A stretch of DNA of 64,000 bases, taken from NCBI RefSeq assembly GCF_018977255.1, contig NW_024704751.1, positions 9,362,001-9,426,000 on the forward strand. Direction: 5' to 3'. The DNA is from Callorhinchus milii. Its lineage: Eukaryota. This document shows, piece by piece, positions 7,585-60,500 of the stretch. Under the pieces are notes generated by a model that ran no database searches, had not been told where the DNA came from, and saw only the letters and a program-made list of their open reading frames with translations. Positions within the stretch are counted from its first letter, which is position 1, and the number at the start of each line of letters is the position of its first letter. Position numbers and translations under genes: made by a program.

Positions 7585-10500
7585 TTTCAGAGAATCAGTC
7601 AGTCAAAAGCCAGCTGGGAATCAAGGTCACCACGTGATCATGTTTCTTGGAAACCACCTGAAAAAAAAGATGCAAAGAAAATACATCAGGCGAGTGCTGA
7701 GACCCTGCTAATGGATGTTTTTTTTCCACATCTTCCAGTCGCCACTTAACCCTCCCACTATTGAAGGTCCTTTCAGCTGCAATAAAGATGCCTCATGACT
7801 CAAATAACATTTCTGTCAATTCTCTTTATTGTTAGCATTACAATGCAGCACATCTCTTCGAATAATGGACCAGTACTGAATAGACGTAACCTTGCCAGTC
7901 ACTGTTGTTGTACAATGTTAAGGCATTCCAAGAGTTACACAGTTCTTCTGTACAAGATTTGAAGCTTCACGTTTACAACAATTCAGAATTAACATAAAAG
8001 GCGTATTTCTGCTCAACACTCCTTCAAACTCGTATTGTAGAAGCTTTGTGATTATATTTCTGGGCCCTTTCCTCATTTTGCTGAAGTACTAATACGCCCA
8101 TCTTTCCAAAACACTGAAAAGTTATAACTGGGCTGAGAATAAACCCTATTTAAGCCCTCCTCACACTGTGCTCCTTCCCTTACAGTGCTGTAAATAGCTT
8201 CACTGAACTGTAGGACTTTAGGGTAAAATCCACAAAAAAATCAAATGGCTTTTTATTAAATGAATTACAATAAAATAACATTCCTGCATTTGATATCGCA
8301 CCTTCCCACCTCGTCAAGAGCTTCTGAAGCAAAGTACTTCACAGGATTCACTGTAAAGTGTAGTGACTGTATTTGTGAGCCAATTTCTACATAGAAATCC
8401 CCCCATAAAACAACCATGAAGTGAATGACCAATTTTATTTGGTGAATTGTTGTCCAGGACACCAGGAAAAACTCCAGGAGAATTAGTCGTTGAGGACCAG
8501 AAAGCTTGTTGGTAAAAAGGAATACTATAAAATCATCAATATTGCTCAGAACTGATTTTTAATAATATTTTAGAAGGATTTGGTGGGGCACTGAGACATC
8601 TATTAAACCCTCCTCATGGTGTGCTACCTTTCTCGCTGGACACCATTTAAAATCTGCATTCTCTCGGATGATGGGATACGTTTATGTGTAATCCATTAGC
8701 CAACCTCAGCAGATAATCAGGCCATTCGCAGTACTCAGCTGCTAATCTGTTCTCTGCAGGCTTTCCAGACGTCTGCTTTTGGGTTTCCCTCATAATTTAC
8801 ACTGGATGCATCCAGCCGTGCCCAGTCAGCAATTGCTTTCACATTTACTGCGAACGGCTCATGGTCACTGTACAAGGAGTAAATTCACGCGGGGCAGTGT
8901 CTTGAAGGGCTTAACACTGGCTCTGAACCCTGGTCAGAGATGGTCACCCCCAATATCAACTTGCTATGAGCTTGGCTCAGTCAGTAGCACTGTTCCCTCT
9001 GCATGAAGGTTGTGGATTGAAGCGCCTTGGGACGTCGTCCTGTCGTGAAAGGGACTATACAAATGTAATTTGTTGTTGTTTGTGGAGTTGTTGACGGCCC
9101 ACCTTGGGTTTTAAGCCTAATAAATAGGGAGCACTGCAGTGAGGAAAGCACTGTCCTTTAGGAGATGTTAAAACTGAGGTCATGTTTGCCTGTTCAGGTA
9201 GACGTTAGTGATCCAGTTATATTGTGGGGAAAAAAGAAGGGGTTTCTTGTGGGGCACTAGCCAAAAGCCATCAAGAAAAATGGGTCATTCACTTCATTGT
9301 GTCCTGCACAAAATGGCCACTTTGTTTGCCTACAAATAGTCACTAAAGTTCACAGCAATTGCCAGTGAAACATTTTGTGACGTGATGGGTGCTATATCAA
9401 ATGTAAGGATTATTAGCCTAACTGTGCAGTACATCTCTCCCTCTACCTAACTCACATCAATCTTTGGATGGGTCTAATCACTCTGTTGCCCTTTTAATCA
9501 TTTCTTATTTCTCTACACATCTCCAACATCCCCCCCACCCCACCAACAGTCTGTTCATGTCTGTCCTCCCTTTATCCCTACTTTATCCCTTTATCTTCTC
9601 CTCCCCCACGGGCTCCAAAACGTGACCCTTCCCCCACCCCCAACCCCACAGCCCCTCGGCCTTCAGGATCTCTGAAAGCCTCCACGTTAATATTGATAAA
9701 CTTGCTATATGATCTGGAACAAACGCACCTTTGGAACAGGTTTTCTTCTACCGCCGGTGAGAAGAAGTGACTTTTACCGAAATTTCTAGCTGCATTTCAA
9801 CCTACGTGAACCTTGGCAACCAAAGCCCCGTCAATTTCTGTCCACCCCAAAAAGAAATCGTACCTGCACAAAAACACATTTTTCAACTTTCAGTGAAGAC
9901 ATACAGTTAAACGCTGACAACACTGACAAGCTGAGCTGCTCTTCTGGCCAGCATGGATTCCAGTCCTGAGCTTGATTAAACACAGCAACAGTCAGATTCA
10001 ATGCAACTGCATTACATTTAAAGGAACAGCACACATAGATGGTTTTGCCTTTTGGCTTGGTGCCTTGGCATTAGCATCTGCTGAGCACATGTTGATGAAA
10101 TGAGTTTCAGAACAGCTGCCTCTTCAGAAATAAACACAAAGAAAGAGACAGACAGATTCTGTCCCACGTCACACAGTGTCAAACACAGCGACTCGTTGTT
10201 ATGGAAACTCGGCAAATCAATTGCACACTTCCTGGTTGCCTACAAATGAACTTACTACTTCTGAGGAACAAACTTGGTGAATTATTCTAAAGACGCATTT
10301 TAGTTTCTTTCATACAGATTCCCACTAATATATTTTCTCTCCTCTTTCTTCCCCTCCTAAGTCCTAGATATAATGGAGGTCAGTGTCAGAGCTGCGCAAT
10401 CTAATCACAACCTCAACCATTTATACCAAGAGAATTAATACTATGCAAGAGATTATACAATAACAATATTATTTGCATTTGATATAGCGGCTTTCACATC

Positions 10501-30194: not shown

Positions 30195-34193
<3,999 letters not shown>

Positions 34194-34797: not shown

Positions 34798-35118
34798 GGA
34801 GTCCTGTAGCTCAGTGGTTGGAGCACTTGCCTTGCAAGTGAGACACCTGGGTTCAATTCCCGGCAGGGCGAAACCTTGGGCAAGTTTCCTTACTCCACAC
34901 GCCTAATAATCGCCTAATCCCTCCAAAAACAAACAAAAAATAAAATTGGTCATTTTCAATCCATGACTGTTTGTGGGACATTGCTGTGCCCAATTGGCAG
35001 CCGCGTTTCGCCCACAAATATACAGTCAATTCACTTTACAGCATATTCTGTGAAGCGCTTTGAGATGTCTAGAAGACGCAAAAAGCGCTATATCAAACGT
35101 AAGGATTATTATTATTAT
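34798..35118 (+). mobile_element. tRNA-derived SINE, short subtype, full length
   Basis: Same head, body and tail as the other copies. Confidence 0.9.
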
Positions 35119-38697: not shown

Positions 38698-39881
<1,184 letters not shown>

Positions 39882-40679
39882 TTTTAAGTAGTTTATTGCT
39901 CTGCTCTCTTGCTTTGGTGTTTTTTTCAATTCACTGATGTATAAATCATGAATGGACTTTGGATTCTTGTGTGCACATGTTGTAGATAATAAAGATTTTT
40001 GGCATTACCTCGAATTGTTGAGTATTGGCTGTAGAGGATAATGAACTTTACAGAGTTTATGTTCCCACTGATAACTAACTTTAAAATACTAGAAAATGGA
40101 ACCTTGTAATGTTAAAATTCTCAGGCCTTTAAACATGACTGACTGCTATATTAAACTATCAAGTTATGACCTCTGAAGAATTTGGAAATTTTAGATGTTC
40201 TGCCTCTTAATGCTTTCAGTAAAGTAGGATTCACCACTATAATAATTTATTCCTAACTGAACCTGCTTTAAACTACTAAATGGGAGTTTGTGTTGACAAT
40301 ATGAATAACAAATATTTGACAAGGATGCAATGCTTTCTAAAGCTTTGCCGAGCAATGCTCTCCTCCCATAGACCCCCCCCCCCACCTGCACCCCCAGGGG
40401 TTATACGTGGCCTCCATTCTGCACACCATTACATACTGATGATTAGGAAACATGGGAGTGGTGGCCTGTGCATCAGTTCCTTAACTGAAAAACAACCAGA
40501 TTTGTGCTTTAATGAGGCAGCATTGGAGTACCTTCAATTTTTCTACCCCCAACTCTGAAATTCCATCCTGGATTCCCTCCACCTTGCCCTTCCACATTCA
40601 AGCTGTCTCAAGACTGGCATTTGAGTTGGTATCCTGAGGGCACTGATTTAAAATAGTTAAAAAAAAACAGGGTGGGGGT

Positions 40680-40925: not shown

Positions 40926-43254
40926 TTCTTTGATCATGCTTTTGGATACCTCCCACTCCATTACTCTCGATTCCAAACCCCAGCTTGGATGCAAACCCTT
41001 TGATGTTGATTGGTTTTGTGTAAAACTCACTGGGAAGGTAATAACATTTTCAAACTGACGTTGAGTTTGTGCATGTCTTTTGTCTTGAAACGCAACGTTA
41101 AGACAGTTTTATATGGGGCTACATTTTCATACAAATTCTTAGTGCTGAGGTGTCATTCTCAAAATTCCTTTGACACCCAGCTAAAGACACAGGACTACAA
41201 TTGCATTATGGATGAAAGGGATGAGAATCTAAATGGGTGTGATCACAAGATTCATTTGGATTAATCTCTTAATTAAAATCCCTTAATCTCTTCCCATATT
41301 CCACCCTTCAGTTCTCCCTTCACATTGAAGGTCCATTGGACTCTAGGGGGAGCTGTTCATTTTAATTACAATGGCGATGCAACTTCATGCGTTAAAAAAT
41401 AACACAACACGTGGAAATAAACAAAGGAAATTCACTGGATCTTCTTCCCCCATCCCCTGGGACAGAAAAGCATAATTGTGGAAGTGTGAAGTTAGCATTT
41501 TGATTACTGCTTTGCTGGCACTCCAGAAGATTGATTGTTCATTTCTTCAAAATCCAGAAAGGCTTTACTGATTCGAATTGCTAGTGTAAGACCTACTGAT
41601 GTCAAGAGATGAAACTTCTAGCAGAGTGAAAAGCAAGTATGGTTAATTTTACTGAGTTGGAGAGAGTAATACATTCAGCTGTGTATGTATCGCAGCACTA
41701 TATATTTACTGAAATATACTGCAGTGAGCAGACTTGATTTTTTCAAAAAAAAACCAGCAATGCTTCCGTGAAGCGCTCTGAGACATCTTGAAGACGTGAG
41801 AAGGCGCTATTCAAGTATTATTGACTCATTTTTCTTCAGTGGCCATTGAAAAGATTACCTTCTCATTTAACGGATGAATGATTGAACTACATCACAAATG
41901 GCAATCACTTAACGATTGAATTTATATTTTACCTTTGCAGGAGCCTTCACTTTAAACGAAAGTCAAAATACTCATCCCGAATTCCACGCTACTGTTCTCC
42001 CTTCACATTGACTCCAGGGGGCACTGTTCATTTTAATTACAATTGCAATGCAACTTCATGTTAAAAATAACATCAGAACGGGCAAAAAGTTGTCGAACTG
42101 AAATGTTAACGTTTTCATAGATGCTGCCTGGCCTGCTGAGTGTTCACACTGACCTGTTCTTGTTTCCCTTTATACTTGCCTGTCCGATAGGCAATCTCGG
42201 AAACCAGGACCGAGGAGCCATACAACGCACATTCTTCAATGGCGGTGTGACGATTTGGGTGAGCTGTTGCTAAGGAAACTTGCAAGAAAGTAGTTGGTGT
42301 CCAGAGGTTGCTCCTGGAAGGCTGAATTGTGTGATACGAAGATATTCTTCGATGCCTTGGCTGCATCTGGAAGCAAGCACACTCACAAGATTAGTTCAGA
42401 TGAAGGAGGCCCTTCAGTCCATCTGCTCTCCTAAAATGAACAAAACGACCAGCCAAGTGCCTGATGTGTGGAAACCCATCACTATGCTTAAAAGAGTTCC
42501 ATGCATTTCACCTACACGCGAAAACTATTCTATCTGGAATGGAATGTGTACTCGGAAGGATGTTTCCCTACTTACCTAATGCTTATCTAATTCCAAAATA
42601 AGATTGCACATCTACAGGAAGGTTAATTTTAAACCTAGAATTCCCGCTGGTTGTCTGTTCCTGAAACATTTAATATCCCATTGGCTTTAATTTCGGAGAT
42701 GCTAGCATTTTGAATTACAAATGTTTGAAGGTTGGCTCAGATGACGGCAGTAATTCACATTTCAGCAAGATCTCCGAGTTGTTGCTGTACTGAGCAGGGA
42801 TTGCTGAGACTCTTGAGAAGTACTCCATGCATGCATGCAGTAATAGCCCGCAGGCCGAAAGTGACTCACAGAGCCGTCAAGAAGCGCCCCCTCGAACATT
42901 CGCATGAGATCAGTGAGTCTGTGTTTTGATGTGTTTTGAGTGTGTGTTTTCAGTTTTTTCTTGATTGAATATTTAAAACCACGACTATTTGTGGGACCCC
43001 TGCTGTGGCAATTGGCTGCCGAGTTTTGCCCACAGGTACAGTCAATCCACGTTACAATATATTTCGTGAAGCGCTTTGAGACGTCTTGATTTATGGCATG
43101 AAATCAATAAATAATCGAGACAATTTGTTTTGTTGGCCATCCATAAAGGTTGGCCACAAAAGTTGTACGCCACTGCTGTAAATAAAAGATTTCTTCAATG
43201 TAAAAGTACTTTCAGATAGTCAACAAATACAGCATTTAGGCAGCTCAAAGCACA

Positions 43255-43362
43255 AAAAAGATGTTCTGACGAAGGGTCGTGGACCCGAAACGTTGACTCA
43301 CTTTACTTTCTCCATAGATGCTGCCTGAACTGCTGAGTGTTCCCAGCGACTTCTGTTTTTGT
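43255..43362 (+). mobile_element. Penelope-type short repeat carrying a minimal hammerhead ribozyme; degenerate copies at about 42075-42160 (+) and 56375-56472 (-)
   Basis: CTGACGA-AGGGTC-GTG-GACCC-GAAAC-GTT core followed by ATAGATGCTGCCTGA.CTGCTGAGTGTTC, a block shared by all three copies. Confidence 0.65.
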
Positions 43363-43806
43363 TATAAAAAAGGTGTATCGATCAGGTGCCTATGCAGCAA
43401 TTAATTTCAAAGTATACTGAAGCCAAGATTAAAATTATGGTTACATTTGGCCAGGTTCCAAACCTCTACATAATGCACTGCATAAAAGTTCTCGTCGAGA
43501 AATAGTCTGCAGTTCTTTTCTAAGTAAGCAACCTGCAGTATTTCCTGTTTGCATAACAGAGGTTTGACATAATACACTTTCTGGAGTTCTGTAGCTTAGT
43601 GGTTAGAGCGCTCGAGAGACCTGGGTTCTATTCCCGGCAGGGAAACGCTTTAAGACATCTAGAAGGCGTGAAAAGCGCTATATCAGACGCAAGGATTATT
43701 ATTATTCTGTCCAATTTAAATTGGAATACTTATTTTACCAATGAGGGAAAGGAGGGTGGAAGTAAGAGGTGAGTGGGGTAAATTGCTTTGTAGGAGACTG
43801 GTCATA

Positions 43807-44110: not shown

Positions 44111-45581
44111 ACAAACAAGCAGCCATAAAGTGAATGATTGACTATTTTATTTGGGCGGGTTATTGGCCAGGACACAGGGAGAAACTCCCTTCTCTATTTG
44201 AATACCACCTGGATAAGCAGCCGGACAGCAATATCAATGGGAAGCTATGTGGTTTTAGCTGGTTAGACTCCCAGCAGTACCCCAACGCGCATTCTGGGGT
44301 TCCCAAGCCCTGCCTCGTGCCAAGCTGCGCCTAATACGTTTCCGGAATTAGGTAAGCAGGAAGCATCCTTCCAGAGAGAGAGAGAGAGAGCACATTCCAT
44401 TCCAACAATCTATCTCTGGGATTTCCATGTGGAGGTCGGATGCACGAAATTCTCAGTTTGATTTGGATACAGTGATGGGTTTACGCATGTGTCGGATACC
44501 TGGCTGACCAAGAAAAAGAGTTCACAATGGGATAGTCTTTCCAAGGTCTGTGGAACAAGGGGATGTGTGTGTGGAAAAGGGCGTGATGAGCTGAATTGTT
44601 AAGGTTTTTTTAAACTTTTTATTTTCTACTAGTATCGGCTCATTTAGTTTATAATTATCATTTAACTAAATTCATCAAAGCTCAGTACTGTGTTTCCCAG
44701 ATTGGCCTCACTTTTATTGAACAATGTGACCTACATTACATAAAGCCTACGCTGAAGCCCAAAGTAACTGCTGTCTGCAGATGTTTGTGGTTTTGAAATG
44801 TTATCTCATGTCTGCACTGTTTTTATAATGGGGTTTGAGCGCCGCTGAGACATTTTGAGGAAACGTTAAATTTGTCTCAAGGCTGCAATTTACAACGGAT
44901 TTTTTTGCTGAAAGCATTTATAAATGTATCACACAGTTTTCAATATCTCACATTCTGCAGTCGACAGTGTGGTTTGTACTGGCACTATGCCAGTTCTATG
45001 CCAATGACTTGCCGTCTGTCGATTGCAATGACTTGTCATCTGTCTGGAGACAACGTTCTTTCAGCTTTCTTCACTGAAGAATCCGTGATGGCTCCCTGAT
45101 AGCTGCCTGTGCAGAACATGAAACAACTTTGTAAACCAGCGAAGACACCATATTCACAGCTTCGTGGAAAGTACAGCTCAGAAACAGGGCATTCGGCCCA
45201 TCCAGTCCGGTCGTTGTTTATACTCCACACAAGTGTCCATCCTAGATCCTATCTCTAGTTCCTTGTCTCTCCGATCTCCTCATGCCGACCTGCTCAAATG
45301 GCACCTGGCCCTCAGCAGCCAACTGATTTGAGCCAACGTCAATCATGACGTTTTTCTATTTTATTTACGTAATACACGTTTCATGTGACTAAAACCACAT
45401 CCTCGTTGAAAATTGTTATCTGAAAAAAAAGAAACAATGTGTGTCTGCTGAGCTGTACGAACAGACTAACACATGGTCTGATATCTGTTTTACTGGAGGA
45501 TCACTTTTCTTAAACTTGAACGCTATAAGGAATAAGTCTCGTGTGTCGTTCTCGGATGTTTTGCAGATTAAATTGAAAAAA

Positions 45582-48500
45582 ATGATCTCACTCCTACTTC
45601 TGTGGCTGGGTAGGTACATTTTGATTTCTTTGTATCCACATGTTCACAAGAAGACCAATAATAATAATCCTTGCATTTGATATAGCGCCTGATCACGTCT
45701 TCAAGACGTCTTAAAGCGCTTCACAGAATATCTTATAAAGTGGATTGACTGTAATTTGTGGGCTAAACATTATGACGTTATGTGATGCTTACAGGCAGCT
45801 GTGTAAAGCAAATTTTATTCTAGATTACTGCATATGGAAATGGCATACCTGAGCAGAGCTATTGTTTTCTGAGTTATCTCACAGAGCAAACAATTCAGTG
45901 ACTTAATTTAGATCGTTTTGTAATTGTGACTAACCCCAAGGTGAGATTTGGCAACAGAATGGCAGAATCAAGCGGTCTCTGCGACGGTTTTAGTAATCCA
46001 GTTCCTGAGCCAGGCAAGTCCGCAGTACTCTCGAGCCCAGCCTGACTGATCGGTAGTACTTGGAAGGGCAAACCAATTACTGGGGGCAGGAAATCCTCTC
46101 ACTCAACTCCTGTCAACCCTGCAAACCAAAGCCCTATTTGGTAGAGTGATCCAAGCTGGACCGGCAATAGGAAGCTTGACAGTCAGTGCTTTCGGTGGCA
46201 AGCTGTGCGATTTTAGCTGGTTAGAGTCCAGCACTACCCCAACCACGCATTGAGGTCTCCAAGCCTTGGTTCTTGCCAACCTGCGCCAAATACTTTCTGG
46301 AATTAACTAAGCAGGGCGGGTCCCGCCAGGGAGCCATTCCATTCCAATAAACGTCCCTGGAATTTCAATGCGTAGGTGGGATGCATGGGATGACTCCCAG
46401 TCTGGTTTCGAAACTCTTAAGCATGGTGGTGGGTTTCCATATATGTTTGACGCCCATAAAAAATCCTGATTGTTAAGAATTAGTCTGTTTTATCTATGAG
46501 TTTAAGGGTTTACATTGCTCTTAAATGATTTTTAAAAGTACTGTCTTCTCTTGTTGTGAAGTCCTGTAGCTCAGTGGTTAGAGCACTCGCTTTGCAAGCG
46601 AGAGACCTGGTTTCAATTCCCGGCAGGATGAAACTTTGGGCAAATTTCCTTACTCCACATCCTGATAATAATCCCTCAAAAAAAATAATGAAATTGGTCA
46701 CTTCAATCCACGACTATTTGTGGGGCACTGCTGTGCACAATTGGCTGCCGCGTTTCACCCACAAATATACAATCAATTCACTTTACAGTCTATTCTGAGA
46801 AACGCTTTGAGATAACTAGAAGGTGTGAAACGGGCTATATCAAATGCAAGGATTATTATTATTATTATTGCTGTTCACTTTGATTTCAACTGGAATATTG
46901 GAATATCCAATGCACTTTTATTATCTAAATTACATCTCATACAGTTGCAAAAATACTTTTCGATATTATACGTAGAATTATATAGAATAAACGGTACAGA
47001 AACAGGCCATTCGGCCCAACTGGTCTATGTTGGCATTTATGCTCCACGTGAGCCTTCTCCTCTTCCTTAACTAAGCCTAACCTTCCGTTCCTTTCTCCCT
47101 CATGTACTTATCTAGCTTCCCATTAAATGCATCTATGCTATTCGCCTCAATTACTTGTGATAGCAAGTTCCACATTCCCACCACTCTCTGGCCTTATTCC
47201 TATGTTGATTTTTCTTTTGTTATTTATGTCTGTAGAATATCTTACTATTTCTTTTTATATTCCTTGATAATTTAATTTCATACTTCCTGTTTGCCTTCCT
47301 AATTGTTTTTCCTTTCCTAAACGCTTCGTATTTTTTTTGTCATGTTGTTGTTTATGTACTTAGTGAACGCCTCTTTTCTCAGTCTTAACTTTGATGGAAA
47401 AAAGTGTGTGGAAGAAAAACATTCTCGTCCCCAATCTATTACCGTGGTCTTTGTCATATTCAAGTTCTTCTCAATCTTTATCTTAAACCTTATTAAGTTA
47501 CGATCGCTATTGCCTAGATGTTCCCCTACCCTTCTCTTATCTGCTCAGGTTAATTATTAAATCCGGCAGGGATTCCTCCCTTCTTACATGCTAGGTAATA
47601 CATATTGTAAAATGTGCTAGCTGCAAAAAAAANTCTACTGCAGCCTCTACAAAGAGAGAGGAGTTGATTTTCTGCTAATTTTACTGATCTTTGGTGGTTT
47701 GAAAGCTTCAGTTCTTCCACTGTTTAGTAAAATGACTTATTTTTAAAAATTATTTTTTCAGAGGAACCGATATGATTGAAAAATAAATGTAAATTGTACT
47801 GTATCAGAATGCCGCGATAATTGTGAACATCAGGCGTTAACATTTCTGTATTAATGTCCCCAAAAAACAGGAAATTCTGATTATTGCCTTACATGGCAGT
47901 TGCTCTTAAAGTTTAATGAAACCAGACTTCAGAGGAAGCAGAAATTACTTTTGCAAACTTAACCTCATTAACCTCAAACACCAACGCGTCAGCTTATATT
48001 ATTCGTGTTGTGGCTTTGTGCAGACAGCAAAACCTGCTTTGTCTCGTAAGTAAGCTTGTCTGATTGGTGGTGGGATCCATCTTAGTTTGGGTCATATCAG
48101 CACGACAATTAAAATGGGCTTATGATTGTGAGCTCCTGAAAGGGTGATGGAAGCAGATTCGATAATAGCTTTCAAAAGGGAATTAGATAGGTACTTGAAA
48201 AGGAAGATTTTGTAGGGCTATGGGGTAAGAGCGGGCGAGCGGGACTAGTTGGTAGCTCTTTCAAAGAGCATGCACAGACATCATGGGCTGACTGGCCTCC
48301 TTCTCTGCTGTAAAATTCTATGATTGTATGATTCTATGAAAGCTTGAAATAAGAAGAGGCTTTTCAGCTCACTCCACAGGTGATGCAAGAATCACCCTAT
48401 CGTGCTCCATCCTAGATACTCCGATCACCTTGGGAAAATTATACCTAAGTAATTCCCTGAATTAAAGGCTATCAGGCAAAAAATACAGAATATTGATCTA

Positions 48501-51500: not shown

Positions 51501-54500
51501 TACTTCCTTCATCCAATATGGCAGCTGTACTGAGGTTACACGCATACTATAACGTTTTAATTATATTCTAGATGTGCCGGCAATACAGGCAACAATTTAA
51601 AAGAAACACCGAAGATCTGAATGGAATCTGCACTTCCTTTTCTTCAAAGTTGGAATCAGATGGTTCTTTTGCCCCTGCAAAGTTAGGTTGGTATAAATCA
51701 GCTCAATTCTGATCTCCTTCGTACATTGATTGCGAGGCACCAAACCTGGCTCAATTGTTTGCATCCTCACCTCTGAGTCAGACGATTGTGGTTCAAGCCT
51801 CATGTCTCAGGCTGGGACACAGAGCTCATTCCTGACACTCCACTGTAGTGTTTGAGCACTGCATTATTGGAGGTGGCATTAAACAAGTCTCTGTCTGCCT
51901 GTTCAACTGGACGTTAGAGATAACATGGTGGTGTTCAAAAAGGGAAGGGAATTTCTCCCGGTAAATAAGTGCATATTGCTGGAAATTAATGTTAAAATGA
52001 GTTATTCTGGTACTCATGGATTACCATTAAACCAGCTCGTACTTTGCTTCTCACTATACATTAGAATAATATAGCATTTCTCATTAACGAATATGCCATC
52101 TGTTTTAACCCACATATTACTGATACTGATGACACATGTTCACCTGAAAACAAATGTCAGGTGTGAGCACCAGAATAGTATAAATGGGCATTTTTACCCT
52201 GTTCACAGAGTCAAGGAACAGTTAAAATGAGATTAATTTGATTTATACAACAGCCCATGTCTTATTTGCTTGTACCACTGATTACTGAACTGAACAAATC
52301 TCAGCAGCTAGATTCTATATATGGTATTTTCATTGAACAGAAATCATTGAATAAAAGGTTTTTTGTGTCTTAGTTGTAGCTGAAATTGCTCGTGCAAATG
52401 GCAGCAGCAATGGCAACAACAACAACAACAACAACAATGATAACAGGGGCAAACTCTCAGGTAAGCCATTTCATAACCATTTGGAATGGGAACATTTGGG
52501 CAAGGCATTGTGACCTGGACAAGATAGGGAAATGTAAATAGGTGAATATTGGTAGAAATTAATCTTAAAATAAGATATTCTGGTACTCATAATATCTGCC
52601 CGGGTGAATACTGATTTTATTACTGTGTGTCTCAATGCGATTATCCCATAACCAGTAATGTCATCGCACAAACAAAAAAATTGCAGTCTCTACCTATTTA
52701 ATAGTCTGTACCATTTAACACTGTCCCAATCCTTATACAAGCTGGTCCCCAATATCTTTCTCCATTTCTGTCCTGTGTATTAGAGCATCAGGTTGCACAT
52801 ATTTCTTCTTAACCTGCCTGTTGTGATAATAATGATGTGCACAATCACTGCTTAAATAGATACTATCAATTGAAGGCTCCAGTGTTAAATGTAAATGTCC
52901 TGTAGCTCAGTGGTGAGAGCACTCGCCTTGCAAGCGAAAGACGTGAAAAGCGCTATGTCAAATGCAAGAATTACTATTATTATGTTATTACAATTTCAGG
53001 AAACGCAAATCAGAACAACAACAACAATAACAACGAAGAAGAAGATGGTGATGATGAATTTGTAACCTTTAACCCAGGGTTAATGTCAGGGGAAAAACTC
53101 CTCGATGTTGATTAAAACAATACATTTGAATCTTGTAAATTTACAGCTGGTTAAGTGTCTTGACAGTACCAGAGGCAAGGAATGTAAAAATGAAGCTAAA
53201 ATTAGGGTACGATTAGCTTGATGCTCACTGAACGCAGATTCCTCTTGGGAAATTAATGATTTGCACAGAATGTACATTTTTGGACAAACTTGTGGAAAAA
53301 CTTTTACATGAGGGAGATAGAGAGTTTTGGGAGGGAGTAAGCAATGGATGAAGACTTATGTAGAGTACAAACACTGACCGGTACGGATTGGTTGGGCCAA
53401 GTGACCTGTTTCCGTGATCTTTAGATCTTTTGTATCTGAGGAGCTGAACACATTGACAAACATATCAGTTCATTGTTTGTTGCCTAATTTCTTAGACCTT
53501 TTGTTGATGCTGTTTATTAAGATGGAGGAATGGAGATTGCAATCATTCTGGATGGATCTGGCAGTATTGATGCTCCTGATTTCCAAAGAGCAAAGACATT
53601 TATCATAAACATCATAACAAATATTTGGAAAGTATGCTTTGAGGTAAATGAGAAAAGTGATCTGTGCTTTGACTTCAATTTATTTCTTTATAAATGATGG
53701 AAGCAATCTATACTTTGCTTTCTATGCACAGGGGAACTCTGTTGTAATACCCTTTGCTGTAGCCGTGCATTGCTTACAGAGAAGGCCCACTGTTGACTTG
53801 CACCAACTGAAAATGTAGTAAATCCAGGTGCCGGTGCTGACGAGCTGTCTCCTCACCCTGACAATGGCTTTAGCCACTGACGTCCAAATAGTTTTAATAT
53901 ATAAAATCTACCGCAAAATATACAGTCAATTCACTTTACAGTGTATTCTGTGAAGCGCTTTGAGAAGTCTTGAAAATGTGATAAGGCGCTGTAGCAAATT
54001 CAAGGATTATTATCGTATTTCTAATAAAATCATTCGCTGATGGCTGTAACAGCTGTTGGGTGGTTGTTAGGTTTGGTTTTGAGATTTGAAAGCCAGAGCC
54101 AGCGACCAGAGGGAGAGAGATAAGATGTGAATGATGTTATATTAAAAAGATACCTAAATGGAATAGAGGGAGGGCAGAGGAATAATTTATGTTGAAACCA
54201 CTTCTTGTACTTAACTTTCTTCTCTAATGGCAACCAAGCCCAAAATTAGGGTATAGCTTTAGTACCACCACTGGCCAAACTGTTGAGTTCTGGATCACTG
54301 TGGCCCTTACCTGTCTCTGCAGACGATGATTTCTTGTTGGTAAATAGTTTAACACTCACGTAAAATAGATTCAAATTAACGTTTTTTTTTAATTTCTGTT
54401 AAAGTGTGATTTTGCACTTGTGCAATACGGTACAAAAATTGAGACCATATTTGATCTGAATGAAAGTCGTACAAACAGTTCTGGGATTTTCTCAATTGTC

Positions 54501-57500
54501 AAAAATATGAGGCAATTGGGTAACGTCACGAAGACGGCATCAGCGATACAGCATGCTCTGTAAGTATTAAAACTGTTGTCTTAATTGGTGTCAGAACGAA
54601 AGTATAAAAATTACTGATACAATTGACTGCCGTGTTTCGCTCACAAAATATACTGTCAATTCACTTTACTGTCAATTCTGTAAAGCACTTTGAGACGTCT
54701 CGAAGACGTGATAAGGTGCTATATCAAATGCAAGGATTATTATTATAAATATAGCAGAGAGCTGATATTGTTATTCTTACTTGTTAACAGTGACCACATC
54801 TTTAATGAAGAAAAAGGCTCTAAAGCGAATGCCAAAAAATTCATTGTTGTGGTGACTGATGGAGAGATATACCGCGATCCTCTGGATATAAGTGATGTTG
54901 TAAATTCGCTCAAAATGAACAATGTTGAGCGGTTTGCTATTGGGGTAAGCTTTTTATTCTTATTCCCTTGGGATTGTTAGTTAGTGACAGATTTATTAAT
55001 CCATAATTATTTCCTATGAATTTGCAGTGAATTAAAACCGGGGACTTATGTCAATACATCATGCCAAAAATGTGTAATTATGCATCAACAACACAAGTGA
55101 GTTTAACAGTTCATTTTTCCTCAGAATACCAGTCCGACTATCTTCCTTTAATAGCATCAAGCTGTTTCCTAAGTGTATCCAGTGTCCTGGCCCCTACCGC
55201 CCTTCCTAGTAAATATTCAGACTGTTAATTATTCTTTTGTAAATAAATACATTTGGGGATCTATTCTAACTTAGCCCTCACAAGCTTTTACACAGAGGCT
55301 TATTTGGACAGTAGACTTGAATAATGATTAATTTATCATTGATGATAATTTATATTGGCTTTGTTTCAGGAATTATGGTTAAGTAGTACTCCAAGAATTG
55401 TCTTTGGAACCCCCTTTGGAACTTGATCCCACAGTCCCTTTGCCTTACTCCCTCCCTTTCTTCCTTAAGGCACATCTTAAGACCCTCCTCTTCGACCCTG
55501 CCTTCGACAACCTTCCTACCCCTGCCCTCCATCCCCTCCTCGGATCCAGATCCCTGACTATCCAACGCATTGGGACGTCCTCCGGACGTGAAAGGCGCTG
55601 TGTAAATTTAAGTTGTTATCTTTCAGTTCTTTGAAGATTTTCTACTTGTTGCCCACAAATCCTATCGACAGACACTTTTTTTTAAACCTTTGACGATTTC
55701 ATTCCCTCTTCAACTACTAATATGGTTGTCCTCGTTTTCTCTACTCATATCAAGTGAATCTCACACATTTTCTTCCAAGATCTTCCAAGGAAGCTTGTTT
55801 CGGGCCAACATTTCTTTTCTCCTCGACTCAATAAAACCCATGACTGCCCAAGCCTTGAATTTGCTATAGTCCACTATTTTTCGTTTGTGGTTTATGTTCC
55901 TCTAACTAGGTTGGAGATGCCACTAAGAAACCAAAACCCGTGGAAGAACTGAAACTAATCGCTAGTGATCCAGATGATAAGCACTTGTTCAGTGTGGATA
56001 ACTATGCTGCTTTAGATGGACTGCTGGAAAATCTGGAAAAAAATATTGTTGGAATTGAAGGTAACATTATGTCTATGGTTGTATTTCAATTGCTTATCTT
56101 GAAGTCACTGTTTTCCTTGCTCGCCACAAGCCAGTTAATGGAAATGATGATAATGATCTTCAGATTCCGAAGAGACCATAGTTGATTCGATTAGTCTTTC
56201 AAAAAAATTAACACTGAAATTACCAGAGCGGGTGACCTATGGCAAATTATTGTCCCATCCATTTGTACAGCAAATACACACTATCGAATCAAACAATTTA
56301 GCAGCGCAAAGCTTCAGTAATACTTCTTTAGCGCATTACATACCATCCAAGGAAAGCAACACAACCTGGAGTTACAATCAGAATTCGCTGGGAACACTCA
56401 GCAGGTCAGGCAGCATCTAAGGAGAGGAAGAAAGTGAGTTAACGTTTCAGGTCAATGATCATTCGTCGGAATAGTAAAACAATTTAAAGTGTTATGATTT
56501 CCAAAGTTCATTTCTGCTACCTTTGTGTTATATTAGTTTTGTGAATTTATTCAACAGGCACTCAAGGCGCCTTTGAAATGCAGCTGGCACAGGCTGGATT
56601 CAGTGCACAATATACCCAAGATGTAAGATTTTGTGACATTTACATTGTGTTATGTTTTTGCAGTTACTTTGTTTAAAGGTGTGAAAATCGGTTTGAAAAA
56701 CAGTTATAACTCGCGCTCTAACAAAGTGCCTGATAATGGGGGTCACCCTCTATTACAGTTGTGATTTCATCACTTTAACCTGACATTGACTGCAGCCCAG
56801 ACAGAAGGATGACATTTTCCTCCTTGTTTCTTAAAATATTAAAGTATTAACTATTAAATATCAAAAGTATTTGATATTAACGTTTTAAAATAACATATCC
56901 ACGTTAGATTGGTTTTAATAAAAAAACAAAAAAAAATTATGACCGTGATTATCACAATTGATTTTTGTTGTAACGTCTTGTGTTATTACCCCCTGTAGGG
57001 CAACATATTAATTGGTGCAGTAGGGGCATATGATTGGGCTGGAGGAGTTATAATGTACAATGAAACAAGTCAAAAGGTACAATTTCTAAATGAGTCTAAA
57101 CCATCAGAGGATACAACCTATGGTTACCTCGGTAAGTTTGACCCTAACAACTTGATATACGTCTATTTGCATAATTGTCAGAACTGTTTTCAGTAGCAGA
57201 ACTGGGGAACTATGCGCCTTTTGAAATGTGTTGTAGCTACTGTAGTTAAGAATTGTCGTCGGCTTTTTTGTGGGTAATAATTCCTTTTTAAAAAAATTTA
57301 CAAAACAATATGAATAATTTGGCCACTCAATCCACGACTGTTTGTGAGACACCGCTGTGCGCAATTGGCTGACGCGTTTCACCCACAAAATATAATCAAC
57401 TCACTTATCGTTTCATTCTGAAAGTGTGTCACACAATGAATTATTTTGAAGTGCTGTGGGTGTATAAATCGAGCATTAATACATGCGTAGTCTTGAAAAA

Positions 57501-60500
57501 CAGTTCTGTTAATATCTATTTCTGTGTTGCAGGGTACAGTGTCACTACAGTAAAGGGAGCAAGCGGGGACATGTACATTGCTGGAGCCCCTCGCTACAAC
57601 CAAACTGGCCAAGTCCTAGTATTTGAAGCGGGAGCGTCCAACACAATAAAGCATCGTCTGAAAGGCAAACAGGTACTTTCACTTGTTTCAACTTGTCATT
57701 TAATACTGATAAATGTAATAACTTACTTTGGTGTGGAATTAAGTTTGAAATTTTAAGTCCCAATGTGATATTAATACCGCATTGGAATCTAATGATGTTC
57801 AGTGATAGGGGCTAAAGATAAGGTTTTGTGGGGTAAACCCACAAAACATACAGTCAATCCACTTTACAATATATTCTGTGAAGCTCTTTGAGATGTCTCA
57901 ACGACGTGATAAGGCACCATATCAGATGCAAGCATTAATATTATTACTAACATTAATTGAACATTTCCCTCTTCGTTACAGCTTGGATCCTATTTTGGCT
58001 CAGAGCTGTGTGCTCTTGATCTAAATAGAGACGGTGCAACAGACTATCTGCTGGTTGGTGCACCGTTCTATCACAAACAAGGAGAGGAGGGAATAGTTTA
58101 TGTCTACCATCTGAATGAAAAGGTATGAATTGTCTGGATTAAAAGGCCGGGTTACCTCCTTGCAGTCTGAAGTATGGAACAGCTGAGAACAATCTAAACT
58201 GTTCCCATCATGGTGTTTCTAATGTTAACTGCCTTAACTGTAAGGTTAAAAAAAATCCAGATATTATGTACCTATGCACCTGTAATCTGTGTGTGTGTGT
58301 GTGTATATGTGTTTCGCTTACATGTCCATCATATGAACTGTTTCCTAGAGAAATTCACACTTGACACTAAGCTCAATTTCTCTTGTGAAATCACCTGGTG
58401 GTTTAATAAGATAATAATATTCCTTCAACAGCTGATGCACATTGTGGAGAGAGCTGTACATAGCTCTCAGCACACAGGAGGGCAATCTAATAGCAATTAC
58501 CAGTTCAGTTCCTCCAACATTCAAACTAACACATCCCCAGAAACAAGCAGAACCCGACAAAGATAAGTAAGTGGTTTAAAAGTTCCACGTTCACTGAGAC
58601 TGAAAAATGTGGAACTCGAAGCTGCTTGTTGATGCGTGAAACCAATTCCTGACAAGTTAACTGGAACCAATTCCTGATCTGGAGTCCTGTAGCTCAGTGG
58701 TTAGAGCATTCGCCTCACAAGCGAGAGACCTGGGTTTGATTCCTGGCAGTGTGAAACCCTGGGCAAGTTTCCTTACTCCACACGCCTGATAATAAGCCCT
58801 CAAGAAAAAAAAGCAATAATAAATTGGTCACTTCACTCCACAACTGTTTGTGGGACGCTGCTGTGAGCAATTAGCTGCCGCGTTCCGCCCACAAATATAC
58901 AGTCAATTCACTTTACAGTATATTCCGTGAAGCGCTTTGAGACTTCTGGAACACGTGAAAAGCGCTATATCAAATGCAAGGATTATTATTATTATTTTAA
59001 GTTCCATAAGTAAGATTTTCTGAGACCGGATGAACCGCAGGCAGTTTTTTTCTAATTCCTTTATTTTTGCTTATTGAACAGAATTACTTTGAAGAAAAAG
59101 GAAATCTAAGTGGTTTACTCCGATTTACCAGAGCCAGGTTTGGGTTTGCGATTGCAAACATAGGTGATATCAATAAAGATGGCTACAATGATATTGCTAT
59201 AGGAGCACCTCTGGAGGAAGATGGCACAGGAAGTATCTACATCTTCAATGGGAATAAAGACAATGGGCTGGAGACCCATTCCCAGGTCAGTGTGTTCATT
59301 TTAAGACCGGTCTCATAATTTTCTAATGGCCTTGTTGTTTCATGTGCCAAATCTTACAAATGATTCATTCCACCTGAACCTTTCCTGTAGCATTCTATAT
59401 GCGGATCTTTTCTGTAATATTTTGAAAATAACCAATACATTATCATATTAAGACACTGGTGATCCAAGCAAATACACAATGTCTGCTTTAACTTTACTAT
59501 GTTTAGAGGATACCAGGAAAAGAGGTTAAAACTGGGCTGCAATACTTTGGACAATCAATTGGTGGTGCAACAGATGTGGATGAAGATGGGTTGATCGATA
59601 TAACAGTTGGTAGCTGTGGTGCTGTTGTTGTACTGAGGTATGTAAGAACATAAGTTATTATGTTAGTCAATTGGCAGATCGATCCAGAGGGTAACAATCC
59701 CTCCAACAACAACAAAAAATTATAATTTAGTCATTCAATCCACGACTGTTTGTGGGGACGCCGCTGTGCGCAATTGGCTGCTGTGTTTCGCCCACAAAAT
59801 ACACAGTCACTACACTCTACAGTATGTTCTGTGAAGCACTTTGAGGTATTTCAACAATGTGATAAGGCGCTTTATCAATTGCAAGGATTATTATTATTAT
59901 TTTTATTAGATTGCCAAATATGCTGAATTTCAAATCCCTAGAAATCATATTAAACCGTAGTGTTATATTCGGGCCACACCTAAACCGCACACAGTGTTGG
60001 GTGGTAGTTCTGTAGGCAGTGTAGAGGGAGAGCAAGGCATTTGCTAGGTTCCATCATTTGGGACACTTGGATCCATTTAAGTGATGATGTGAATAAGTAT
60101 GTGCTCCTCAGGAACACTCAGGTATCAGTGCTTTGCAATTAATCATTTTCTTGAAAGGATATAATTCTATTGTATTTAATTTTATACTTTAATAAGTTAC
60201 GACTTTTTTACAGCTCAAGGCCAGTTATCAATGTAATTGTCACCGTGACATTTTCTCCAGAAAGCATACCTCTGCCTTCCACAACTCACCAAAGACAGGA
60301 ACAACTTATTCACGCAACTGTATGTTTTACCACTGGATCGAACTTTAAATCAATAGGTAATGTTAGCGCAATATTCTACGTTGCAGAACTGAATGTATTT
60401 ATTTGTGTTTAGTCTGGTTTCAAAGGGGAGTGGAAGGATTTTGAGATCAGAAGTCAGACTTTCACTGTACAGTACTGATGATGGGATCAGAATGAGTGGA

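What the first reader, a model, noticed from the sequence alone, without database searches (positions are those of the whole stretch)
43263..43297. Intact-looking minimal type I hammerhead ribozyme upstream of ITGAE
Seen: GTT-CTGACGA-A-GGGTC-gtg-GACCC-GAAA-CGT-T-GAC. This has the hammerhead core CUGANGA...GAAA, a 5-bp stem II, a 3-bp stem I (GUU/GAC) and a palindromic ACGU in place of stem III ahead of a GUU cleavage triplet. Established: Penelope-like retroelements carry minimal hammerheads of this kind that cleave as dimers through the palindromic stem III. The two other copies (about 42075 and 56440-56472, the latter with CCGACGA) have damaged cores. Inference: this copy may still self-cleave and could cut UBB read-through or upstream ITGAE transcripts, since it lies on the sense strand between the two genes.
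Basis: partly seen in the sequence, partly recalled or inferred. Interest (0 to 1): 0.7.

Follow-up and report, generated by a model that had tools for sequence, protein, structure and literature searches.

The report
Solo Penelope-element hammerhead stub
The motif is a real, unmutated copy of the tiny hammerhead self-cutting RNA motif known from Penelope-like jumping genes, but it is the front of a 101-base leftover of such an element, one of thousands in this genome, and it is likely a passive passenger that rarely cuts and was not recruited by the neighbouring genes.

Summary
The motif is at 43263-43297 exactly as written and is not chance (1 full-descriptor hit, 0 in 300 shuffles). It is the first 35 nt of a 101-bp solo end piece (pLTR) of an endonuclease-positive Penelope-like element. 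The family is large: 428 exact motif copies, 2,640 hits to an adjacent 22-mer. A decayed whole element pLTR-RT-GIY-YIG-pLTR exists elsewhere. Copies decay neutrally: core-breaking CpG changes are as common as tolerated ones, and 4 of 43 are intact, so an intact copy needs no selection. This copy has lost a stem I pair, is predicted to fold into a core-blocking helix, and has no intact partner in 64 kb. It lies 3.3 kb past the polyubiquitin AATAAA and 2.3 kb before the integrin alpha-E ATG. A role in cutting those transcripts is unsupported. Side result: copies start at the motif's first G (20 of 69 within 4 nt), and starts at the cut site are rarer than at neighbouring positions (10 vs 64 and 21). 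Uncut RNA was therefore likely the template. The scan noted this before in this and other genomes. Ordinary.

The parts
43263..43297 (+). Minimal type I hammerhead motif (3-bp stem I, 5-bp stem II, palindromic ACGU, GUU triplet, predicted cut after 43294); identical to the family majority
43263..43363 (+). 101-bp solo pLTR fragment of a Penelope-like element, from the family's 5' hot spot (G of GTT) to the T-rich 3' end; 2 substitutions (43305, 43329) against the family majority, both outside the motif; no clean target-site duplication (best exact repeat 7 nt, A-rich)
43268..43294 (+). Predicted core-blocking helix GACG (43268-71) with CGUU (43291-94); pair probabilities 0.84-0.99 at 4 of 4 context lengths, against 0.10-0.17 for stem I
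   Evidence: ViennaRNA prediction
43230..43244 (-). Possible remnant of an inverted arm of the same insertion (14 of 16 columns); borderline: 36 of 1234 control windows score as well
42076..42167 (+). Older decayed copy of the same repeat; core and stem II destroyed; nearest same-strand partner
56376..56472 (-). Decayed antisense copy in an integrin intron (CCGACGA, broken stem II)
38737..39993 (+). Polyubiquitin gene (five repeats, stop 39879-81, AATAAA 39988-93); UBB by synteny with an upstream CENPV-like gene (synteny recalled; Pfam GFA E 0.0023, below cut-off)
45517..45609 (+). First coding exon of an integrin alpha-E-like gene (ATG 45582); a spliced contig joins it to 50063

Best explanation
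The motif is the unmutated hammerhead at the front of a 101-base solo end piece of a Penelope-like retrotransposon, one of thousands of such copies in the genome, and it is likely an unselected passenger that would seldom cut any RNA here. Shown: family membership, copy number, link to RT and GIY-YIG, neutral decay of the core, a 5' hot spot at the motif's first base, and no excess of starts at the cut site. Inferred origin: the element's protein likely nicked A/T-rich DNA, started reverse transcription inside its own RNA at the T-rich site about 100 nt in, and ran off the front of an uncut RNA that likely begins at the motif. This leaves a stub without the upstream promoter-like sequence and without the fourth stem I pair. 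Inferred behaviour: with no stem III the motif needs a second hammerhead or the element's protein to cut. In the whole element two pLTRs lie on one RNA; here there is no intact partner, and read-through RNA past the UBB poly(A) signal would be short-lived.
For: Copy number: 428 exact 32-mer matches vs 0 control; 2,640 matches to a 22-mer 3' of the cut; 3 hits in 399,944 random bases. Element link: 9 of 20 RT loci have RT, EN and pLTR collinear; L232 has pLTR-N-term-RT-EN-pLTR in direct order; a CX4CXXC linker is seen in L034. Neutral decay in copies not selected on the core: G8>A 10 of 51 vs tolerated N7 10 of 51; G12 14 of 60 vs C11.1 12 of 60; 4 of 43 fully intact. Stem II: 3 compensatory, 21 one-sided, 21 broken cells. 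Folding: blocking helix P 0.84-0.99, stem I P 0.10-0.17; active homodimer -11.3 vs two monomers -19.6 kcal/mol; heterodimer with the 42076 copy -5.0 vs -13.5. 5' starts: 20 of 69 at -6..-3 and 1 of 69 at the cut site, a locus-edge artefact; genome-wide 10 cut-site-type hits vs 64 and 21 one base either side. Papers: PMC4209133 (single motif inactive, dimers low) and PMC11167929 (no cleavage without protein, unprocessed RNA is the insertion substrate, no RNA-seq reads ending at the cut site).
Against: All four CpGs of the motif are intact and both substitutions lie outside it; that fits selection, though about 9% of copies are intact anyway. Nearest-neighbour energies ignore tertiary contacts and Mg2+. 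The native 4-bp dimer is also unfavourable (-14.5 vs -21.6), so these energies do not separate this copy from the working element. The blocking helix is not family-wide: its median probability falls to 0.02-0.14 in longer contexts of other intact copies. Pfam hits for RT (E 0.009) and GIY-YIG (E 0.037) are below curated cut-offs, and 1 of 3 peptides had none. 6 of 10 family copies with a double change at pair 10.2-11.2 restore an A-U pair, a weak hint of covariation, though transition bias predicts that change. The 64 control hits at -1 are likely inflated by 1-base deletions. No orthologous locus could be examined.
Confidence: 0.88

Rival explanations
1. Unselected but leaky ribozyme: UBB read-through RNA reaches the motif, and a small fraction is cut with help from RNA chaperones or other family transcripts in trans, with no effect on either gene.
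For: The motif is intact, on the sense strand, 3.3 kb past a polyubiquitin AATAAA. Unspliced low-depth contigs from probable RNA runs cover parts of 40.2-42.7 kb, but strand and RNA origin are not shown. Protein-assisted cleavage is reported for the anole element (PMC11167929, parts 1-2 of 4 read).
Against: The predicted blocking helix and 3-bp stem I; no intact partner in the window; low activity of such motifs even as dimers (PMC4209133).
Confidence: 0.08
2. Domesticated ribozyme: the host keeps this copy to cut UBB read-through RNA and insulate ITGAE.
For: Position between two same-strand genes; 0 of 35 motif positions changed against 2 of 66 downstream. A probable DNA run of another study carries the same 5' junction and core up to 43287, but with only 25 nt on the repeat side, under the tool's 31-nt bridging bar.
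Against: Intactness is expected in about 9% of copies, and 428 others are as intact. The copy is young (2 of 101 differences). It lacks stem III and a partner. In HeLa constructs an efficient hammerhead placed past a poly(A) site left the termination profile unchanged (PMC2288634, passages read).
Confidence: 0.03
3. The 101-bp unit is a separately transposing, SINE- or retrozyme-like element rather than a by-product of the long element.
For: Many copies share both ends, and it ends in a T run.
Against: No diagnostic differences were seen between short and long copies in the printed rows (not tested with a tree). Short units lack the upstream promoter-like sequence. They carry the inverted arms and optional ~35-nt tail typical of PLE insertions (PMC8557442 passages). 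There is one motif per unit rather than tandem motifs.
Confidence: 0.04

Closest known systems
Minimal hammerheads (min-HHR) in pLTRs of metazoan Penelope-like elements (Cervera and De la Pena 2014, PMC4209133; parts 1-2 of 4 read)
   Same: Type I, conserved core, extra nucleotide between 9 and 10.1, G10.1-C11.1 pair, palindromic 15.2-16.2 with no stem III, thousands of dispersed single copies tied to truncated PLEs.
   Different: Stem II is 5 bp (7-8 bp in the Schistosoma families); stem I is 3 bp here, 4 bp in the family. Within-family variation looks like neutral decay rather than covariation. Cartilaginous fish are not named in the parts read.
Poseidon element of Anolis carolinensis, PAc (Frangieh et al. 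2024, PMC11167929; parts 1-2 of 4 read)
   Same: Hammerhead in the pLTR near the pLTR-ORF junction; two 3' end points separated by an optional tail; uncut RNA as the apparent template.
   Different: This family has a CX4CXXC linker (Neptune/Nematis type per PMC8557442). The window copy is a solo stub with no ORF. A 5' pile-up at stem I is not described in the parts read.
Neptune/Nematis clade EN+ PLEs (Craig et al. 2021, PMC8557442; passages read)
   Same: RT followed by C-terminal GIY-YIG, Cys linker, 5'-truncated and inverted copies, tail, hammerhead in pLTR.
   Different: No tree was built, so Neptune vs Nematis is not resolved; all coding copies examined are broken.
Host-associated vertebrate hammerheads (Clec2 3' UTR, RECK intron; PMC6155905, passages and legend read)
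   Same: A hammerhead near a host gene on the sense strand.
   Different: Those are drawn with tertiary contacts and lie inside host transcripts. This one is minimal, one of thousands of young repeat copies, and intergenic.

Membership tests
PLE minimal hammerhead (min-HHR) | Core CUGANGA...GAAA...UH intact | tested here: met
PLE minimal hammerhead (min-HHR) | Extra nucleotide between 9 and 10.1, and G10.1-C11.1 pair | tested here: met
   A43273; G43274-C43286; features from PMC4209133
PLE minimal hammerhead (min-HHR) | Palindromic 15.2-16.2 in place of stem III | tested here: met
   ACGU 43290-93; dimer pairs all canonical or G-U
PLE minimal hammerhead (min-HHR) | Short stem I closing the motif | tested here: inconclusive
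   3 bp here vs 4 bp in long copies; predicted probability 0.10-0.17 in context
PLE minimal hammerhead (min-HHR) | Lies in the pLTR of an RT-EN Penelope-like element | tested here: met
   9 of 20 RT loci collinear; direct-repeat element L232
PLE minimal hammerhead (min-HHR) | Covariation of stems | tested here: inconclusive
   Within this one family: 3 compensatory vs 21 broken cells in stem II, 0 in stem I; 6 of 10 double changes restore a pair. Dead copies of one family are not expected to covary; other vertebrate genomes were not available.
PLE minimal hammerhead (min-HHR) | Self-cleavage as dimer or with protein help | not testable with these tools
   Needs an in vitro assay; no excess of copies starting at the cut site
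Rfam hammerhead families | Covariance-model match | tested here: not met
   No hammerhead family among 21 matches at E<=10
EN+ PLE, Neptune/Nematis type (parent element) | PLE-type RT followed by C-terminal GIY-YIG | tested here: met
   Order; Pfam RVT_1 E 0.009 and GIY-YIG E 0.037, both below cut-off; RT motif reading is from recall
EN+ PLE, Neptune/Nematis type (parent element) | CX2-5CxxC linker between RT and EN | tested here: met
   CX4CXXC in the L034 translation; first Cys changed in L040; feature from PMC8557442
EN+ PLE, Neptune/Nematis type (parent element) | Direct pLTRs, inverted 5'-truncated arms, optional 30-40 bp tail | tested here: met
EN+ PLE, Neptune/Nematis type (parent element) | RT phylogeny places it in the clade | not tested
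   No reference PLE proteins were on hand
Domesticated host hammerhead | Conserved at the orthologous site under purifying selection | not testable with these tools
   No related vertebrate genomes are held
Domesticated host hammerhead | Monomer-competent fold with stem III | tested here: not met
   No stem III; blocking helix dominates

The most novel reading that the evidence does not exclude
This stub is a DNA record of how the element copies itself. The hammerhead is the first 35 nt of the element's capped RNA, begun at an initiator-like site about 30 nt below a TATA-like motif (both consensus matches recalled). Reverse transcription starts internally about 100 or 136 nt downstream and runs off that 5' end, giving thousands of strong-stop-like solo inserts from uncut RNA. 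The ribozyme would then act, if at all, after or apart from insertion. Not found in 4 searches aimed at it or in the paper parts read; noted earlier by this scan in other DNA.
Probability: 0.5. Interest if true: 0.45.

Novelty: new member of a known kind. Interest (0 to 1): 0.15.

Why it matters
As a locus it matters little: it is one intact stub among hundreds, of a motif class described in 2014. A self-cleaving insulator between a housekeeping gene and an immune integrin would be notable, but I put that at about 3%. The family-level pattern is the useful part. Shared starts at the motif's first base and no excess at the cut site give a testable genomic counterpart to the in vitro finding that Penelope-like elements insert uncut RNA by internal initiation.

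Tried and rejected
Rfam scan: no hammerhead hit. The bare core pattern is chance-level. An apparent preference for T before GTT in the top 30 hits was query bias: the preceding base was about even (by-eye tally T 11, C 12, G 13, A-only 14; at least one row was misjudged by eye, so one search counts are used instead). A spliced upstream exon as the cause of the 5' hot spot was rejected, because no shared upstream sequence was seen among such copies; an acceptor-like CAG does lie there. A target-site duplication for the window copy was not established (best 7 nt, A-rich). The inverted arm upstream is borderline. Family-wide self-inhibition was not upheld in longer contexts. RNA: no RNA holder is on record (RNA labels are guesses); only contigs were available, which show no starts, ends or strand; no listed contig of probable RNA runs X1, X2, X4 covered 43110-43211, which proves nothing; no pile-up of ends could be tested. 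Lunse et al. 2017 was not held and is known only through a review's passages (PMC6765202). No supplements were read; supplementary alignments of PMC4209133 may already list this family. No protein-homolog, structure or complex jobs were run, as they would not bear on the question.

Full report
Observation. The loose core pattern occurs 6 times against 5.77 expected. The complete descriptor occurs once in the window and never in 300 shuffles. Rfam gives no hammerhead match at E<=10. The copies near 42076 (+) and 56376-56472 (-) are damaged as stated.

What it is. The motif opens a 101-bp unit (43263-43363) whose best genomic relatives are 92-99% identical over about 100 nt (811 candidates, 40 scored). 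A 32-mer with two free positions has 428 exact matches against 0 for the control. A 22-mer just past the cut site has 2,640. Forty 10-kb stretches taken at fixed round positions held 3 hits in 399,944 bases, one of them only 34 nt, which extrapolates to very roughly 5,000-7,500 copies. Longer copies run upstream through a pyrimidine-rich region into a GIY-YIG C-terminus and an RT. Pfam support is weak (RVT_1 E 0.009, GIY-YIG E 0.037, third peptide none). The order RT-EN-repeat is collinear in 9 of 20 RT loci. L232 is a decayed whole element: pLTR (-46..+136), N-terminal region, RT, EN, second direct pLTR. A CX4CXXC linker in L034 points to the Neptune/Nematis type by PMC8557442 (passages read); no tree was built. 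Inverted arms and an optional ~35-nt tail are common, as that paper describes. The 0.99-Gb genome is likely a cartilaginous fish (recalled resemblance, no call).

Is intactness meaningful? In 69 alignments from loci chosen on the downstream 22-mer, on RT, or at fixed positions (arms of one insertion counted separately), 43 span the motif; 4 are fully intact and 18 keep the core. The four CpGs dominate the damage without regard to function: G8>A 10 of 51 against 10 of 51 at the free position 7, and G12 14 of 60 against C11.1 12 of 60. Stem II has 3 compensatory, 21 one-sided and 21 broken cells; stem I has none compensatory. A genome-wide search for double changes at pair 10.2-11.2 gave 13 hits (control 1); 10 belong to this family and 6 restore an A-U pair, which transition bias alone could give. 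The window copy differs from the family majority at 2 positions, both outside the motif. It is a young, lucky copy.

Could it cut? Long copies have a 4-bp stem I; this one begins at the G and keeps 3 bp. The predicted fold pairs the core GACG with CGUU (P 0.84-0.99 in four context lengths) and leaves stem I at 0.10-0.17. The active homodimer is -11.3 kcal/mol against -19.6 for two monomers, and a heterodimer with the 42076 copy is -5.0 against -13.5. Caveats: the native dimer is also unfavourable (-14.5 vs -21.6), tertiary energy is ignored, and in longer contexts of other intact copies the blocking helix mostly disappears (median 0.02-0.14). PMC4209133 (parts 1-2 of 4) found single motifs inactive and dimers weak. 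PMC11167929 (parts 1-2 of 4) found cleavage only with the element's protein.

Gene context. The polyubiquitin CDS ends at 39881 with AATAAA at 39988; a CENPV-like gene upstream (weak) fits UBB by recalled synteny. The integrin's I-domain exon best matches alpha-E. A spliced contig joins 45517-45609 to 50063, and low-depth unspliced contigs reach back to 44647; contigs cannot show a start. The motif is thus 3.3 kb past the poly(A) signal, 2.3 kb before the ATG and 1.3 kb before the furthest such contig. In HeLa constructs an efficient hammerhead past a poly(A) site did not alter the termination profile (PMC2288634, passages). Whether this site is transcribed remains open.

How the stub arose. 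Maximum-likelihood 5' boundaries in the 69 unselected alignments: 23 extend past -14, 20 fall at -6..-3, 6 at -2..0, 15 at +1..+26, 4 beyond +31, and 1 at the cut site (a locus edge). A second set, chosen on part of the motif, had 11 of 42 exactly at -3. In L065 both arms of an inverted pair end at -3. Genome-wide, 10 copies fit a start at the cut site against 64 and 21 for the neighbouring positions. Five of the 10 keep upstream motif sequence, three are inverted-arm joints and two are unclear. Some earlier scan notes on other genomes report a few percent of starts at the cut site; I do not see that here. The native sequence at the hot spot resembles an initiator with a TATA-like motif about 30 nt upstream (recalled consensus), and in L232 and L218 the pLTR tail leads into the ORF region. 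I infer that the RNA starts at the motif, is reverse transcribed uncut from internal U-rich sites, and yields solo stubs. A Pol III start or an RT stop are not excluded. PMC2377424 (passages) places the Drosophila Penelope promoter inside the pLTR, and PMC3846280 (passages) describes solo pLTRs. I noted this reading before consulting the scan's notes, which hold it many times over; those notes are not independent support.

Verdict. Correct identification of a known kind of motif in a known kind of element. Confidence 0.88 that it is a passive stub, 0.08 that it is leaky but inconsequential, and 0.03 that it is domesticated. Interest 0.15.

Noticed in passing
window ~39380: The third ubiquitin repeat is 227 rather than 228 bp (one base short in an A run), shifting the frame of the polyubiquitin ORF; most likely an assembly error.
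   Followed up: no
L191:1501 (G000:C1023) and L190:1501 (G000:C166): Two other minimal-hammerhead-like motifs with unrelated stems II and flanks on small contigs; possibly other PLE families or non-host DNA.
   Followed up: partly
L181-L189: Six family copies swap G10.2-C11.2 for A-U; could be a minor sublineage, hairpin repair or transition bias.
   Followed up: partly
L031:34-2078 and 7856-9898: A 2-kb inverted duplication at 99.6% identity, about 6 kb apart, each arm holding a long copy of this element; a recent duplication or assembly artefact.
   Followed up: no
window 46560-46631, 34800-34871, 58683-58754 and others: tRNA-like Rfam hits are the heads of an abundant SINE, not tRNA genes; one sits at 43587-43645, 220 bp past the motif.
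   Followed up: no
window 52341-53062: Two short integrin exons encode Asn/Glu/Asp-rich runs just before the I domain, like the acidic extra domain of alpha-E (recalled).
   Followed up: no
L007:1465-1503 (native sequence upstream of the motif): The pyrimidine tract ending in CAG also looks like a splice acceptor whose AG falls in stem I, as reported for Drosophila virilis Penelope in PMC4209133; no spliced copies were seen.
   Followed up: partly
window 31077-31304 (-): CENPV-like exon upstream of the polyubiquitin gene (Pfam GFA E 0.0023, below cut-off).
   Followed up: partly
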